Shown here in pieces: positions 6,781 through 39,604 of a stretch of 64,000 nucleotides of DNA. The DNA comes from Escherichia coli (GTDB lineage Bacteria; Pseudomonadota; Gammaproteobacteria; Enterobacterales; Enterobacteriaceae), in the NCBI RefSeq assembly GCF_001677475.2, contig NZ_CP015229.1; one strand, 5' to 3'. The stretch's first letter is position 1, and every line of letters begins with the position of its first letter. The notes below the pieces were generated by a model. The model did no database searches. It was not told the origin of the DNA and saw only the letters and a program-made list of their open reading frames with translations. Position numbers and translations under genes: made by a program.

Positions 6781-8849
<2,069 letters not shown>

Positions 8850-30515: not shown

Positions 30516-30533
30516 TTGCAACCGTCGTGCCAG
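30516..30533 (-). promoter_or_regulatory. Sigma54 (-24/-12) promoter of rtcBA
   Basis: Minus strand reads CTGGCACgacggTTGCA, matching TGGCAC-N5-TTGCA, about 38 bp upstream of rtcB ATG and divergent from rtcR. Confidence 0.85.
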
Positions 30534-35925: not shown

Positions 35926-35948
35926 GCCCGGTTGAAGTGCAACCGGGC
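35926..35948 (+). terminator. Hairpin terminator after glpD (shared with convergent island operon)
   Basis: GCCCGGTTGaagtgCAACCGGGC followed by TATTTGG. Confidence 0.6.
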
Positions 35949-35969: not shown

Positions 35970-36575
35970 TTATTGTAAATAATTGAATAACGGCCCCTGA
36001 GCTAAAATCGCCAAACTTAAGCACGTTACCCACTCACCCCATTTCTGCCTCTGGCTTCTATTTTTGCTACACCAATGGCAATAATATCCCAATGCAAAAC
36101 CAACCTGTGCACTAATCGGGCCGACAAAATCAGTCCACGACTGCGGCCAAAAAGGGGAAAAATTCAGGGGAAGCCAGACAAACGTCAGAAAGAAATTTCG
36201 GATATTTTCCAGCAACGCTGATTTCTCTGGAGAAATATAAAGAATGAAATTCGAGAGAATTAACCAGAAATAGACCGGAGAAAAGACCAGCCAGCAATGC
36301 AGTCTGTTTTTTAATTCAGGAGGCGTTCTGCGGGAGAATTGCCAACCGATGCCCCACATTACACTGAAAAAAAATGCATATTCAACCATTAACTCAAGTT
36401 GTAATTCCTGAAGAGAAATACGCACAACCAGGAGCGGAAAGGAGAATGTTATTTCTGCCAGAAAAGTTAACGTGAATATAAGTACGGCTAAGACAATAAC
36501 CGTCGGCCATACCAATACTGGCACGATAACAAAACCGAGAATTACAGGGGGAATATAAAGCCGGAATTTAATCAT
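35970..36575 (-). CDS. Hypothetical small polytopic membrane protein (last gene of uncharacterised four-gene operon)
   Basis: 201-aa ORF with several hydrophobic helices; AGGAAA 7 nt upstream of ATG; 2-nt gap from the upstream gene's stop. Confidence 0.6.
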   Translation of the reverse strand: MIKFRLYIPPVILGFVIVPVLVWPTVIVLAVLIFTLTFLAEITFSFPLLVVRISLQELQLELMVEYAFFFSVMWGIGWQFSRRTPPELKNRLHCWLVFSPVYFWLILSNFILYISPEKSALLENIRNFFLTFVWLPLNFSPFWPQSWTDFVGPISAQVGFALGYYCHWCSKNRSQRQKWGEWVTCLSLAILAQGPLFNYLQ

Positions 36576-36577
36576 TT

Positions 36578-37345
36578 TTATTTTCCTGGTGATTCGGATG
36601 ATGCGTCATACATCGCGCATAAACACTCATCAATCATCCAGTCGTCTACCCAGACCTGATGCTGTGTACCCTGTTCTGGCTGCTTTGGTGGGTTCTCAAT
36701 CGCCTGCCGCGCGCGTTCTTTCAGGATGGATTGATTGTTGAAGGCCCAGGCATTGATTTGGGCGGTAATGGCATTATCGATATCGTCATGGTTATCTCTG
36801 ATATAACCTTCACGATACTGGTTCAATAAACAGGCAAGTGAAGCTGCCGACCAAAAGCCGGGAATTGAATTAACGGCATCAAGCAACGGCGCAATGGCGA
36901 TATCGGCACGGAAAAACATTTCCAGCATATACTGTAATTCGACAGCTTCATCGCCGGATACCCAATCAGCCATATACTGGCAGGCAAATCGCTGCAATAT
37001 TGCCCGTTCATCCGCACGCCAGTTTTCTTTGTTGGCAAGGTTGATACGGCGCAGAGAAAAAACTTCGTGAATATTGTCAAAATACCCCTGTGCAACAAAT
37101 TCCAGTAAACGCGGAAGAAAATAGCGGACCTCATCGCTATTTTGCGGATCGGGTCCTGGGCTACTATTCCAGGCATTGATTAAGGAATACGAGATCGCTC
37201 GTAACGATGTACTCCGTAATACCTTTTGTTCCTGCTGACTCAGGCAATATTCACAACAAACCACAAATTTCTGCGGCACCGGATAGCGACGAAAAATATG
37301 ATAAATCTGCTCAATTAATGCCTGCATGGCGGGGCTGGGTTGCAT
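36578..37345 (-). CDS. Hypothetical soluble protein (third gene of uncharacterised operon); start ambiguous
   Basis: Track ORF 36578..37372 (264 aa); preferred start is the ATG at 37343-37345 (MQPSPAMQALIEQ, 255 aa) preceded by GAGGGGG and 2 nt after the upstream stop. Confidence 0.55.
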   Translation of the reverse strand: MQPSPAMQALIEQIYHIFRRYPVPQKFVVCCEYCLSQQEQKVLRSTSLRAISYSLINAWNSSPGPDPQNSDEVRYFLPRLLEFVAQGYFDNIHEVFSLRRINLANKENWRADERAILQRFACQYMADWVSGDEAVELQYMLEMFFRADIAIAPLLDAVNSIPGFWSAASLACLLNQYREGYIRDNHDDIDNAITAQINAWAFNNQSILKERARQAIENPPKQPEQGTQHQVWVDDWMIDECLCAMYDASSESPGK

Positions 37346-37347
37346 AA

Positions 37348-38055
37348 TTACCCCCTCGCCCGCTGGTCGCATGTAAATGGTTGATAAACCAAACGAGCAT
37401 TCGCCGCATTCAGGCGAATAATGGCACTACGAGAGAGGGAAAAGCTGGGGCGAATGCAATAATTACAGTCCCGACAGCTATCCTCTGTGCAATTTTCCAC
37501 TGAGTAATGACGCGCGTAGAGTTTCAGTTCAGCCTGCTTATCGCGAAATCCGCGTAAACTGTTATCGCTATGAAATTTCCAGGCTTCTTTAAACACCTGA
37601 AAGATATAGACATCCTCAATCCAGGAGTCACATTTTTTAAGCGGGCGCTTTGCTATGATCACCCGCTCCGGGTTTAGCATCGCCGTAAAATGAACGGTGA
37701 AGTCATTTGTCGTATTCAGGTCACATTGAACATCTGGTACATCACTGATATAGGGGTCAAATCCAAAATCAGCACCACAGGCACAAAGACGACCGATCGT
37801 GGTGGTATCGAGGGAAAATCCCGGCCATACATTGCTGGACGTTAAGCCAATATTTAATGTGACATTATATCGAAGCAATCCCTCAAGACCGTCAGCACCG
37901 ACGAACTTTTCCCCTTCATCCAGGACCTGATTAATGAGTTGTTGAACAATACCTTCATCCCAGTATGCCGATTTGCAGTTGGCAATCGTAATATCCACGC
38001 CTGTGAAAGGATCAGTACCAGCGAGGCTTGCAAATAATGTATTAACTAATTCCAT
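37348..38055 (-). CDS. Hypothetical Cys-rich protein (second gene of uncharacterised operon)
   Basis: 235-aa ORF with 10 Cys including cluster C-x4-C-x2-C-x2-C (CTEDSCRDCNYC); 14 nt downstream of the first gene. Confidence 0.6.
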   Translation of the reverse strand: MELVNTLFASLAGTDPFTGVDITIANCKSAYWDEGIVQQLINQVLDEGEKFVGADGLEGLLRYNVTLNIGLTSSNVWPGFSLDTTTIGRLCACGADFGFDPYISDVPDVQCDLNTTNDFTVHFTAMLNPERVIIAKRPLKKCDSWIEDVYIFQVFKEAWKFHSDNSLRGFRDKQAELKLYARHYSVENCTEDSCRDCNYCIRPSFSLSRSAIIRLNAANARLVYQPFTCDQRARG

Positions 38056-38069
38056 TTTTATTACCCGCC

Positions 38070-39587
38070 TTAATGCAACGTTTTATACATCGGCACATAA
38101 CCCACGTCTTCTACCAAACTCTGCCCCTGCGGCGTTAAAAACCATTCAACCAGTTTTTGTGTTTCTGACGTCATATTTTCCCGCGTTACCATAAAGGCAT
38201 CGACGATATAGGGATATTTGCCATTGCGAATGTTTTCCGCAGTCGGTGCAATACCGTTAATCGCTAACAATTTGATATTCTTATCGGCATTCATTTGTGT
38301 TGCGTAATAGCGGAAGGTATAACCTATTGCGTTGTTTGTATTACGGTATTCGGCAACGACTTTAATCATTCCCTCCATCACACTTGCCACTTCGGTTTCC
38401 TGCGGCGAGATCATACGGACATTTTTCATGACCTGTAATTGCATCACCGTCTGACTGCCAGAGTCTTCCGGGCGTTGCCAGGTCTGGATCTCCTGATCGT
38501 TACCGCCAACAGTACGCCAGTTGGTAATTGCGCCACTAAAAATGTCTCGCACTTGTTGTTCAGTCAGGGAATTGACTGGATTATCAGCATTGACGATAAA
38601 AACAAATGCTTCACGGGCAAAGGGGGTGTACAGCAAAGTGACACCAGATTCCTTTGCACGTTTTTTCTGCCCACCGGAAGGTTGCGCCACGAAAATAATA
38701 TCAGCATCACCCTTAACGATTTTGTTATATGCTTCTGGCGTACGAGAGTTATCCAGATAATCCCAAACGTGAAAATCCTCTGGTATTATGCTTAACGCAT
38801 AAAAGGCAGAAGCATAAATTGGGTACGCCGCCGTGGCACCATCGATTCGCGGCCAGTTTTGCGTAAACTGAATTTGCGGTTTGCCACGCAGCGGCGTCAG
38901 TCGATTATTGAGTTTATCGGGTCGCCAGGCCCAGATATCAATATTTTCGCGTACACCAACACCAGGGTTTTGCTGCTTATATAAATGGGCCTGATACCCA
39001 GCGACAATACCAAGTAAGAGAAGTAGAAACAGGAGTAAGTTACGGCAACGTAGCCCGGACGTGCCGGTTAAAGGATGCCTTGTCGGCCAGCCGTATCCCA
39101 GCGAAAAACTGATATGCGTTCCAACGGGAATAATGACTATCCACCAGTACTCACCACCGACTAATGAGACTAACAAAACACCCAGCCAGGGAAGCATAAG
39201 ATCTGCCAACCAACCTGAAACCATCTGGCGAAATTGATAATCTGCCAGATGTAGCGTGATTATCCAGCCAACCAGGATTAATAAAGCAGGAACTAAAAAA
39301 AGACATTGTCGCCAGGCGGCTATTTCTCTGTTTTCTGGTGCGCTATCGCCCGCCCACACTCGCCCAGAGAAAAATAGCAGTAATGCGCCCAGCGTCAGCA
39401 TAAAGACGTTAAGTAGAAGATAAATTGTTGGCGTAAAGAGTAAATTGCAAAACTCAAGAATAGCGGCAAGCCCGGCCCCCAGCATGGCAATAACCGCCGC
39501 CAAAAACTGCGCCAGAATGGGGATGCCGAAAAAAGTCATTACCAGCGAGGTCAAAATCCATTTTCTGTTTTGCATTATTCTTTCCAT
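38070..39587 (-). CDS. Membrane-anchored PstS-like (PBP-like) substrate-binding-domain protein (first gene of uncharacterised operon); probably the intact form of K-12 pseudogene yzgL
   Basis: 505-aa ORF; N-terminal ~190 aa with multiple hydrophobic helices; C-terminal part with phosphate-binding-protein-like motifs (LTEQQVRDIFSGAITNWRTVGG); alternative start at Met5 (39575). Confidence 0.7.
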   Translation of the reverse strand: MERIMQNRKWILTSLVMTFFGIPILAQFLAAVIAMLGAGLAAILEFCNLLFTPTIYLLLNVFMLTLGALLLFFSGRVWAGDSAPENREIAAWRQCLFLVPALLILVGWIITLHLADYQFRQMVSGWLADLMLPWLGVLLVSLVGGEYWWIVIIPVGTHISFSLGYGWPTRHPLTGTSGLRCRNLLLFLLLLLGIVAGYQAHLYKQQNPGVGVRENIDIWAWRPDKLNNRLTPLRGKPQIQFTQNWPRIDGATAAYPIYASAFYALSIIPEDFHVWDYLDNSRTPEAYNKIVKGDADIIFVAQPSGGQKKRAKESGVTLLYTPFAREAFVFIVNADNPVNSLTEQQVRDIFSGAITNWRTVGGNDQEIQTWQRPEDSGSQTVMQLQVMKNVRMISPQETEVASVMEGMIKVVAEYRNTNNAIGYTFRYYATQMNADKNIKLLAINGIAPTAENIRNGKYPYIVDAFMVTRENMTSETQKLVEWFLTPQGQSLVEDVGYVPMYKTLH

Positions 39588-39604
39588 TCTTTCTGAATGG
39601 CGAA

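What the first reader, a model, noticed from the sequence alone, without database searches (positions are those of the whole stretch)
36578..37372. Third island gene: ambiguous start, tight coupling, no recognisable family
The longest frame (264 aa) would overlap the upstream gene by 25 nt. The ATG nine codons in (37343-37345) is preceded by GAGGGGG and lies 2 nt after the upstream stop (TAATTATG), which is the more likely coupled start (255 aa). The protein is soluble, with paired cysteines (VVCCEYC near the N-terminus, ECLC near the C-terminus) and no motif I can assign.
Basis: seen in the sequence. Interest (0 to 1): 0.45.

Follow-up and report, generated by a model that had tools for sequence, protein, structure and literature searches.

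The report
Unnamed RNA-repair-linked protein family in E. coli
This is a real 255-residue E. coli gene with no curated annotation, and its distant relatives in other bacteria sit inside, or are fused to, RNA-repair gene clusters, which gives the first testable clue to its function.

Summary
There is an ORF at 36578-37372 (-). The 255-aa start (ATG 37345-37343) lies 2 nt after the upstream stop, behind GAGGGGG. Both cysteine motifs are present.

The start is now settled. The long-frame ATG is ACG in another E. coli allele and is absent in other genera. The short start and its Shine-Dalgarno site are invariant.

"No recognisable family" is only partly right:
- No Pfam, NCBIfam, PADLOC or PHROG model matches, and no solved structure resembles the confident all-alpha model.
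- An exhaustive search nevertheless finds a broad unnamed family of about 240-260 aa proteins. It gave 500 cluster representatives across many phyla.
- The family shares Y-x2-F, a Cys cluster, [KR][YH]FLPRxLEL and W...E. I call it FAM.

The only recurrent genomic context of FAM is RNA repair:
- It lies inside RtcB operons and inside Hen1/Pnkp operons.
- It lies next to RlaP nucleotidyltransferases.
- It is once fused to RlaP.

The E. coli copy keeps every core residue but lies in a different operon. That operon has four translationally coupled genes, including a membrane-anchored PstS-like protein. The island is variable, and the gene is present in 55% of complete E. coli genomes.

An RNA-repair role for the E. 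coli protein is therefore an inference, not a demonstration.

The parts
36578..37345 (-). G3: coding sequence of the 255-aa protein (FAM family member), stop codon included
   Evidence: ORF. The start is fixed by PGAP annotation of the orthologue, by conserved N-termini and by the DNA alignment. Family membership.
37351..37357 (-). Shine-Dalgarno-like GAGGGGG, 5 nt upstream of the ATG
   Evidence: Sequence. A purine-rich block is conserved at this position in five loci.
37370..37372 (-). Upstream in-frame ATG of the 264-aa reading; not the start
   Evidence: It reads ACG in E. coli L001 and is absent in L012, L099 and L002.
37244..37258 (-). Codons for the Cys cluster C30-C31-x-x-C34
   Evidence: C30 and C34 are conserved in 94% and 96% of 186 non-redundant family members. 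A third Cys occupies position 33 in 68% of members; the window protein has it at position 31.
37097..37126 (-). Codons for RYFLPRLLEF (residues 74-83), the family signature [KR][YH]FLPRxLE[LF]
   Evidence: P78 is conserved in 100% and R79 in 97% of 186 non-redundant members. This pattern retrieved 162 confirmed loci from genomes.
36617..36625 (-). Codons for C241-L-C243 (the ECLC motif)
   Evidence: C243 is invariant and C241 nearly invariant in the 20 close homologues. It is not a conserved Cys column in the wider family.
37348..38055 (-). G2: 235-aa soluble Cys-rich protein, annotated 'YbbD family protein' in RefSeq; its stop lies 2 nt before the G3 start
   Evidence: The Klebsiella homologue has a faint DUF4279 hit.
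38070..39587 (-). G1: 505-aa protein with an N-terminal polytopic membrane domain and a C-terminal PstS-like PBP_like_2 domain
   Evidence: Pfam PF12849 E=6e-30 and TIGR02136 E=5e-35. Hydrophobic segments between residues 10 and 203. This gene is the constant element of the island in other enterobacteria.
35970..36575 (-). G4: 201-aa membrane protein; its start lies 2 nt after the G3 stop
   Evidence: Its L097 homologue also matches G1 weakly (E=3.7e-5).
35926..35948 (+). GC-rich hairpin between the convergent genes G4 and glpD, a likely bidirectional terminator closing the operon

Best explanation
SHOWN:
- G3 is a genuine gene that starts at ATG 37345. It is the third cistron of a four-gene, translationally coupled operon, G1-G2-G3-G4.
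- The operon lies in a low-GC, variable island between glgP and glpD.
- The product is a cytoplasmic, acidic, all-alpha protein. It belongs to a widespread family that has no curated model, here called FAM.
- FAM proteins are about 240-260 aa. They share an N-terminal helix Y-x2-F-x2-Y, a Cys cluster (C-x2-C-C or C-C-x2-C), [KR][YH]FLPRxLEL and W-x3-E.
- Other FAM members are components of RNA-repair gene clusters in several phyla:
  - between RtcB and RtcA;
  - between Band-7 and RtcB;
  - RtcB-FAM-RlaP-RlaP;
  - between Hen1 and Pnkp, flanked by other genes, which in Deinococcus are two RlaP-like nucleotidyltransferases;
  - a FAM::RlaP fusion protein.

INFERRED:
- FAM is a non-enzymatic cofactor or adaptor whose fold is pinned by a metal-binding Cys knuckle.
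- It presents a conserved surface (Y15, F18, R79, E82, W109, E113) to a damaged-RNA end or to the repair enzymes, most probably the RlaP-type 3'-end nucleotidyltransferase.
- The E. coli copy retains all these residues, so it probably retains the same binding activity.
- It has been moved into an operon with a membrane-anchored PstS-like phosphate-binding protein and a YbbD-like protein, and it probably forms a complex with them.
- Whether it still serves RNA repair is not established. The rtcR-rtcBA locus lies 4-6 kb away.
For: Gene and start.

Family: one search gives 500 representatives at E<=1e-3 and 58 at E<=1e-10.

Structure: AF2 pLDDT 85 and pTM 0.85, 12 helices.

RNA-repair linkage:
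- L010 and L011: RtcB-FAM-RtcA, with RtcR and Ro60 also present in L010.
- L103: RtcR / Ro60 / RtcB-FAM-FAM'-DUF6847-RtcA. Its RtcB is 67% identical to the E. coli RtcB.
- L044 (Acidovorax): RtcR / Band_7-FAM-RtcB-RlaP-AAA-DUF2201.
- L076 (Verrucomicrobia): RtcR / 285aa-FAM-RtcB.
- Five Flavobacteriaceae loci: RtcB-FAM-RlaP-RlaP, with or without Band_7, a CCA-enzyme-like gene and PrfH.
- L105 (Deinococcus ficus pDFI2): Hen1-RlaP-like-RlaP-like-FAM-Pnkp with overlapping stop and start codons.
- L064 (Pirellulaceae): Hen1-x-FAM-x-Pnkp.
- L056 and L057: FAM (residues 8-231) fused to RlaP (267-504, 154 bits).

Census:
- RlaP and RtcB are the largest neighbour clusters shared across loci, and the rest look like within-genus synteny.
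- 11 of 80 genome loci are repair-linked.
- The eight RtcB-linked members fall in 4 of the 6 major sequence sub-clusters of the family.
Against: - The E. coli gene itself is not in a repair operon. There is no RlaP in the window.
- There is no sigma-54 promoter upstream of the island; the only perfect match is the rtcB promoter.
- None of the enterobacterial loci examined has a repair gene adjacent to FAM.
- About 86% of family loci show no repair genes within 8 kb.
- L012 has the island with FAM but no rtcR next to glpR.
- dN/dS is 0.31, truncated alleles are frequent, and 45% of E. coli lack the gene. All of this argues for a dispensable function.
- Metal binding, RNA binding and protein partners are untested.
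Confidence: 0.4

Rival explanations
1. G3 is a dedicated cytoplasmic subunit of a membrane-associated module built around the PstS-like protein G1. The module would sense or transport a phosphate-containing ligand, and in E. coli it would have nothing to do with RNA repair.
For: - G3 is translationally coupled to G2 and G4.
- In enterobacteria FAM occurs downstream of 1-4 G1-like genes at the same chromosomal site: E. coli, L012, L097 and Klebsiella L099.
- There is no internal promoter or terminator signal above chance.
Against: - G1, G2 and G4 homologues were absent from all 80 distant FAM loci.
- The Salmonella island has G1-like and G2-like genes without FAM.
- L002 has two tandem FAM genes without G1.
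- The pairing is therefore lineage-specific and not obligatory.
Confidence: 0.25
2. G3 is an orphan immunity-type protein that neutralises a toxin, possibly an RNase toxin. It would be kept in a variable island alongside other immunity-like genes.
For: - The upstream neighbour is called 'YbbD family', and its Klebsiella homologue has a faint DUF4279 hit.
- DUF4279 is described as an immunity family (FdL-Imm5, PMC9424270). It is also the putative immunity partner of an Rhs-Ntox33 effector (PMC13304343).
- One FAM member is fused to DUF4279 (33.8 bits).
- Tandem FAM paralogues exist in L002, L079 and L103.
- The island varies in content and shows deep allelic divergence.
Against: - No polymorphic-toxin domain (Rhs, PAAR, LXG, CdiA, Ntox) appears among the neighbour families recurring across the 80 loci, or among the ten neighbour proteins scanned individually, four of them large.
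- Neighbours are otherwise unrelated housekeeping genes.
- Strong conservation of Y, F, Cys, PR, W and E across phyla at about 20% identity is more typical of a ligand-binding protein than of a fast-evolving immunity protein.
- A profile comparison of G2 with the DUF4279 domain is not significant (probability 0.25%).
Confidence: 0.15
3. G3 is a decaying remnant with little or no present function in E. coli.
For: - It is absent from 45% of complete E. coli genomes. K-12 keeps only a yzgL fragment and O157:H7 keeps only G1.
- Many truncated alleles exist: 206, 235 and 240 aa clusters with hundreds of members.
- dN/dS is 0.31, and it rises along the operon to 0.52 in G4.
Against: - The frame is intact in the window, dN/dS is well below 1, and all family core residues are retained.
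- Orthologues are maintained at the same locus in E. albertii (named hits), in Klebsiella and in two unnamed metagenome contigs.
Confidence: 0.1

Closest known systems
Scaffold or cofactor components of bacterial RNA-repair operons (Ro60/TROVE, SPFH/Band-7, Archease), as I recall them from Burroughs & Aravind, NAR 2016. That paper is not held here; I cite it from memory and through PMC12776372 and PMC6514570.
   Same: - FAM is a non-enzyme-looking protein embedded between the ligase (RtcB or Pnkp), the end-modifying enzymes (RtcA, Hen1) and the RlaP nucleotidyltransferases.
- It is sporadic in distribution.
- It often occurs under RtcR control, alongside Band-7, Ro60 and tRNA-like RNAs.
   Different: - FAM has a different fold from these components and no sequence or structural similarity to them.
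- Most family members, including the E. coli one, are encoded outside repair operons.
RlaP (PF10127), the RNA-ligase-associated Pol-beta nucleotidyltransferase. It adds 1-2 NMPs to the 3'-OH of damaged RNA (PMC12776372).
   Same: - RlaP is the most frequent conserved neighbour of FAM.
- It is fused to FAM in L056 and L057.
- Both occur with either ligase type.
   Different: - FAM is not an NTase, since no Pol-beta motifs or hits were found.
- E. coli has FAM in the window but no RlaP there.
HEAT / MIF4G / W2-type alpha-helical repeat domains (CWC22, eIF4G, eIF5-CTD, PDCD4)
   Different: - Foldseek gives E>=1.1 and TM<=0.32.
- This is generic helical resemblance, not evidence of homology.
DUF4279 / FdL-Imm5 and other polymorphic-toxin immunity proteins
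   Same: - FAM lies in a variable island and has tandem paralogues.
- There is one FAM::DUF4279 fusion.
- It lies next to a YbbD-like, faintly DUF4279-like gene in enterobacteria.
   Different: - No adjacent toxin gene was found in the loci examined.
- The fold is all-alpha rather than ferredoxin-like.

Membership tests
FAM (unnamed family defined here: RNA-repair-associated Cys-cluster helical proteins) | Single-domain protein of about 240-260 aa, detectable by sequence search from other members | tested here: met
   - phmmer from G3 alone finds 58 cluster representatives at E<=1e-10 in 1.8 billion proteins. Most full-length hits are about 230-290 aa.
- The family HMM scores the window ORF at 8.7e-65, but that HMM was built from an alignment that includes the window protein.
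FAM | Motif set: N-terminal Y-x2-F-x2-Y, Cys cluster, [KR][YH]FLPRxLE[LF], W-x3-E | tested here: met
   G3 has Y15, F18, Y21, C30/C31/C34, RYFLPRLLEF (74-83), W109 and E113. These columns are 87-100% conserved in 186 non-redundant members.
FAM | All-alpha fold with the Cys cluster in the loop after helix 1 | tested here: met
   In the AF2 model, helix 5-18 is followed by coil 19-36 containing C30-C34, then 11 more helices; pLDDT is 85. Only the window protein was modelled.
RNA-repair operon component (RtcB- or Pnkp/Hen1-type systems) | Encoded in the same operon as an RNA ligase, an end-healing enzyme or RlaP | tested here: not met
   G3's operon partners are a PstS-like membrane protein, a YbbD-like protein and a membrane protein. 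rtcB and rtcR lie 4-6 kb away, beyond glpD, glpE, glpG and glpR. There is no RlaP in the window. The feature is met by distant members only.
RNA-repair operon component | RtcR / sigma-54 dependent expression | tested here: not met
   The only good sigma-54 promoter match in the window is at 30517-30532, upstream of rtcB. None lies upstream of G1.
Polymorphic-toxin immunity protein | In at least some genomes, the gene lies immediately downstream of a toxin gene carrying a recognisable toxin or trafficking domain | tested here: not met
   - Pfam scans covered 295 neighbour proteins (positions +/-1 and +/-2) of 80 loci, plus ten neighbours scanned individually.
- No toxin domain was among the recurrent families or the individually scanned proteins.
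- Singleton hits below the top 25 families were not visible.
HEAT / MIF4G-like repeat proteins | Significant structural superposition on a solved member | tested here: not met
   [not shown]
Zinc-binding (Cys-knuckle) proteins | Four Cys/His ligands in tetrahedral geometry, with bound metal | not testable with these tools
   - Three clustered Cys are conserved.
- A fourth ligand was not identified. C241 and C243 are conserved only among the close homologues. His is present at two other columns in 37-49% of members.
Any curated family (Pfam-A 2025, NCBIfam 20.0, PADLOC 2.0, PHROGs v4, PDB sequences) | A hit at or near the curated threshold | tested here: not met
   There were no hits for G3. 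For 63 diverse members, only isolated chance-level hits at E>0.003.

The most novel reading that the evidence does not exclude
FAM is a previously unrecognised, widespread cofactor of bacterial RNA repair. It works with the RlaP 3'-end nucleotidyltransferase and with either class of RNA ligase. The E. coli copy, which lies only 4-6 kb from rtcR-rtcBA, would be a trans-acting accessory factor of the Rtc system. Its operon partners, a PstS-like periplasmic binding domain on a membrane anchor plus a YbbD-like protein, might then couple an envelope signal such as ribotoxin entry to RNA repair.
Probability: 0.2. Interest if true: 0.75.

Novelty: new variant of a known kind. Interest (0 to 1): 0.5.

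Why it matters
- The Rtc system of E. coli is well studied, yet its physiological substrates and helpers remain unclear. RlaP was characterised biochemically only in 2025 (PMC12776372).
- FAM has no Pfam or NCBIfam model and no structural relative. It nevertheless recurs inside RtcB and Pnkp/Hen1 operons in at least six lineages and is fused to RlaP. That makes it a concrete candidate for a missing accessory factor.
- More than half of E. coli strains carry a member, so genetics and biochemistry could be done in a tractable organism.
- The finding also shows that the glgP-glpD island, represented in K-12 by the yzgL remnant, is a conserved but variable module across Enterobacteriaceae. Its function is unknown.

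Tried and rejected
- Curated libraries. Pfam, NCBIfam, PADLOC and PHROGs gave nothing for G3 or for 63 diverse relatives. PDB sequence profiles gave nothing either.
- Immunity-protein hypothesis. It was suggested by the YbbD-family neighbour and by tandem paralogues. I tested it with a neighbour census and by scanning ten neighbour proteins individually. No toxin domains turned up. G2 versus DUF4279 by hhalign was not significant. I keep it as a minor rival because of one FAM::DUF4279 fusion.
- Co-occurrence of G1, G2 or G4 with distant FAM members: none found.
- Sigma-54 / RtcR control of the island: no promoter match.
- Structured RNAs in the island: no Rfam hit.
- Mobile-element origin. There are no phage homologues. 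The only plasmid hits are on Deinococcus megaplasmids.
- Literature. There is nothing on WP_001183144, yzgL or YbbD function. The 2016 survey of RNA-repair systems (PMC5062991) is not held. I therefore cannot exclude that the family was noted there under another name.
- The first attempt at a genome scan failed because the whole-family alignment was too divergent. A motif-restricted sub-alignment worked.
Full report
**1. The observation**

The window is E. coli chromosome. Its glgP product is 100% identical in protein to that of an E. coli strain. The gene order is rtcB, rtcR, glpR, glpG, glpE, glpD, island, glgP, glgA, glgC.

The ORF at 36578-37372 (-) exists and is 264 aa long. It overlaps the upstream gene (37348-38055) by 25 nt.

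Reading the minus strand gives, in order:
- GAGGGGG at 37357-37351;
- the upstream stop TAA at 37350-37348;
- TT;
- ATG at 37345-37343.

The G3 stop (36580-36578) is followed after 2 nt by the ATG of the next gene (36575). The 255-aa product carries VVCCEYC (C30, C31, C34) and ECLC (C241, C243). It has no hydrophobic segment and a pI of 4.8.

**2. The start codon**

- PGAP annotates the orthologue as a 768-nt gene, WP_001183144.1.
- All 20 aligned close homologues, down to 48% identity, begin at the equivalent Met. One of them has a 14-residue insertion right after it.
- A DNA alignment of five loci is decisive. The long-frame ATG of the window reads ACG in another E. coli allele. It has no equivalent in L012, Klebsiella or L002. 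ATGCAACCCAGC with a purine-rich Shine-Dalgarno block upstream is invariant.

The 255-aa coupled start is the real one.

**3. Is it a functional gene?**

- The gene is present in 3011 of 5426 complete E. coli genomes, always chromosomal.
- The whole four-gene island is at least 80% present in 2431 genomes. K-12-like strains keep only the 348-nt yzgL remnant, and O157:H7 keeps only the first gene.
- Alleles are deeply diverged, at 80-95% nucleotide identity.
- Against one E. coli allele, dN/dS is 0.12, 0.18, 0.31 and 0.52 for G1 to G4. The flanking genes glgP and glpD give 0 and 0.04.

G3 is therefore under purifying but relaxed selection, and the island is dispensable. Many truncated alleles circulate.

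Operon structure:
- The island has 44-46% GC against about 52-54% in the flanks.
- There is a GC-rich hairpin between G4 and the convergent glpD.
- There is no internal promoter or terminator excess.
- No Rfam hit falls in the island.

**4. Homology**

Curated libraries give nothing for G3.

The word-indexed search finds only Escherichia and Shigella proteins plus a few relatives at 48-72% identity. The exhaustive phmmer search over 1.84 billion representatives finds much more:
- 500 representatives at E<=1e-3, 58 at E<=1e-10 and 17 at E<=1e-30;
- the full-length hits are mostly about 230-290 aa and 20-40% identical.

A genome scan with the family signature returned 162 confirmed loci. The 80 loci kept come from Bacteroidota, Proteobacteria, Planctomycetota, Verrucomicrobiota, Actinomycetota, Chloroflexota and others.

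In 186 non-redundant members the conserved columns are:

| Window residue | Conservation |
|---|---|
| Y15 | 98% |
| F18 | 98% |
| Y21 | 87% |
| C30 | 94% |
| Cys at position 33 | 68% (the window protein has it at position 31) |
| C34 | 96% |
| P78 | 100% |
| R79 | 97% |
| E82 | 85% |
| W109 | 89% |
| E113 | 96% |

The window protein keeps all of these. The C-terminal C-x-C is conserved among the close homologues only.

None of 63 diverse members matches any Pfam or NCBIfam model or any PDB sequence. I call the family FAM.

**5. Structure**

AlphaFold2 with a 20-sequence alignment gives a confident model (pLDDT 85.3, pTM 0.85). It has twelve helices, and the Cys cluster lies in the loop after helix 1.

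| Search | Best result |
|---|---|
| Foldseek, PDB | E 1.1 |
| Foldseek, BFVD | E 0.45 |

There is no solved relative. The resemblance to helical-repeat adaptors is generic.

**6. What the family does: context evidence**

I extracted the genes flanking FAM in the 80 genome loci and scanned 295 neighbour proteins against Pfam.
- The top recurrent family at positions +/-1 is RtcB, with 4 members.
- The top recurrent family at positions +/-2 is RlaP, with 5 members, followed by sigma-54 activators among others.
- An all-against-all clustering of neighbours gives RlaP (6 loci) and RtcB (5 loci) as the two largest cross-locus clusters. The other clusters look like within-genus synteny.

The architectures are:

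| Locus | Organism or source | Gene order |
|---|---|---|
| L044 | Acidovorax | RtcR / Band_7-FAM-RtcB-RlaP-AAA-DUF2201 |
| L076 | Verrucomicrobia MAG | RtcR / 285aa-FAM-RtcB |
| L065, L071, L075, L089, L093 | Flavobacteriaceae | RtcB-FAM-RlaP-RlaP, with or without Band_7, a CCA-enzyme-like gene and RtcB2-PrfH |
| L010, L011 | metagenome contigs | RtcB-FAM-RtcA, with RtcR and Ro60 also present in L010 |
| L103 | sequencing-run assembly contig | RtcR / Ro60 / RtcB-FAM-FAM'-DUF6847-RtcA; RtcB 67% identical to the E. coli enzyme |
| L105 | Deinococcus ficus pDFI2 | Hen1-RlaP-like-RlaP-like-FAM-Pnkp, overlapping stops and starts |
| L064 | Pirellulaceae MAG | Hen1-x-FAM-x-Pnkp |
| L023 | Ferruginibacter | FAM near Band_7 and two RlaP genes |

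Two fusions add to this:
- L056 and L057 encode a 558-aa protein in which FAM (residues 8-231, E=2.5e-44) is fused to RlaP (residues 267-504, 154 bits).
- L079 encodes FAM fused to DUF4279.

In total, 11 of 80 genome loci are repair-linked, plus four loci from other sources (L010, L011, L103, L105). The eight RtcB-linked members fall in four of the six major sequence sub-clusters of the family.

The link is independent of ligase type, since it holds for both RtcB and Pnkp. It tracks RlaP most closely. RlaP was recently shown to add one or two nucleotides to the 3'-OH of damaged RNA (PMC12776372).

No polymorphic-toxin domains were seen among the recurrent neighbour families or the ten neighbour proteins scanned individually. 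No phage homologues exist.

**7. The E. coli context is different**

No homologue of G1, G2 or G4 accompanies distant FAM members. In Enterobacteriaceae the glgP-glpD site holds a variable module:

| Locus | Content between glgP and glpD |
|---|---|
| E. coli (window, L001) | G1 (membrane domain + PBP_like_2), G2 (YbbD-like), FAM, G4 |
| L012 | 176aa, G1, G2, FAM |
| L097 | three PBP_like_2 genes, FAM, G4-like, 142aa |
| L099 (Klebsiella) | three to four G1-like genes, G2-like, YbbD_head, FAM |
| L102 (Salmonella-type G2 homologue) | G1-like, G2-like, YbbD_head, no FAM |

- L002 has two tandem FAM genes elsewhere in the chromosome.
- The constant element of the island is the PstS-like membrane protein. 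FAM is a frequent but not obligatory passenger.
- The island has no sigma-54 promoter. The single perfect match in the window is the rtcBA promoter.
- No RlaP is present in the window.
- G3 lies 4.3 kb from rtcR and 6.1 kb from rtcB. The same island-glpDEGR-rtcR arrangement is seen in Klebsiella and L097. L012 has FAM without an adjacent rtcR, so the proximity may be coincidence.

**8. Interpretation**

Shown:
- a real gene with the 255-aa start and translational coupling;
- membership of a broad uncurated family;
- family-level embedding in RNA-repair systems, including a fusion to RlaP.

Inferred:
- FAM is a metal-stabilised helical adaptor or cofactor that binds damaged-RNA ends or the repair enzymes.
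- The E. coli copy keeps that binding activity, because all core residues are retained.
- It works in a lineage-specific operon with membrane proteins.

My confidence in the combined statement is 0.4. Taken separately, I put the gene and family part near 0.95, the family-level repair link near 0.8, and a repair role for the E. coli protein near 0.2-0.35.

Rivals:
- a dedicated subunit of the PstS-like membrane module (0.25);
- an orphan immunity-type protein (0.15);
- a decaying gene (0.1).

**9. Novelty**

The gene is an annotated "hypothetical protein", so its existence is not new. As far as I could check, three things are new:
- the definition of the family;
- its RNA-repair and RlaP linkage;
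- the recognition of the glgP-glpD module across enterobacteria.

The key 2016 comparative-genomics survey of RNA-repair systems could not be read. Prior mention of the family there cannot be excluded. No Pfam (2025) or NCBIfam (2026) model exists.

Noticed in passing
L044 6461-6522; L076 10204-10290; L010 10609-10681; L093 12601-12941: Rfam tRNA-model hits lie inside or directly beside the FAM-containing RNA-repair operons. In L044 the hit lies just upstream of the Band_7 gene. From memory, Burroughs & Aravind 2016 described tRNA-like RNAs associated with Band-7 and RtcB systems, and these hits are consistent with that.
   Followed up: no
window 35970-36575 vs 38070-39587; L097 8795-9373; L099 6925-7998: One L097 ORF matches both G4 (E=1.4e-25) and G1 (E=3.7e-5). 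Klebsiella also has a roughly 356-aa G1-related protein next to three full-length G1-like genes. G4 may therefore be related to part of G1, so the island may be built from duplicated membrane modules. Which region of G1 is matched was not checked.
   Followed up: partly
window 30517-30532 (-): There is a perfect sigma-54 promoter consensus, TGGCACGACGGTTGCA, 39 nt upstream of rtcB. It sits where the known RtcR-dependent rtcBA promoter is expected. It is the only zero-mismatch site in 64 kb.
   Followed up: no
L103 8772-9500: A second FAM paralogue lies directly after the first, between RtcB and RtcA. It has lost the whole Cys cluster (..ELAVS----INDDN..) but keeps LLPRILEL. The cysteines are therefore not indispensable for every family member.
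   Followed up: partly
L079 6547-7701: A 384-aa protein in a Chitinophagales MAG is FAM (residues 1-209) fused to DUF4279 (residues 300-377, 33.8 bits, above the Pfam cut-off). A second stand-alone FAM gene lies downstream (8001-8726), after a called 90-aa ORF. In enterobacteria FAM follows a gene with faint DUF4279 similarity. This may be a second functional link.
   Followed up: partly
window 39575-39587: G1 also has an ambiguous start. The longest frame begins MERIMQNRK (505 aa). The PGAP gene for the orthologue in L001 is three codons shorter, but a 3-codon length difference elsewhere between the two alleles means the start used there was not established.
   Followed up: no
window 36000-39600: The island has 44-46% GC against 52-56% in most of the window. 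Its synonymous divergence between E. coli alleles (dS 0.13-0.26 for G1-G3) is higher than that of glgP (0.06). This suggests old allelic lineages or recombination from other species.
   Followed up: partly
L002 5495-5722 (-): Upstream of the tandem FAM pair there is a called 74-aa 'gene'. Its translation looks to me like a REP (repetitive extragenic palindrome) element rather than a protein.
   Followed up: no
P0179 (492 aa), P0173 (381 aa): P0179 is a longer family member with two FAM-matching stretches. P0173 carries an extra roughly 130-aa region with no Pfam hit. These may be tandem-domain or novel fusion forms.
   Followed up: no
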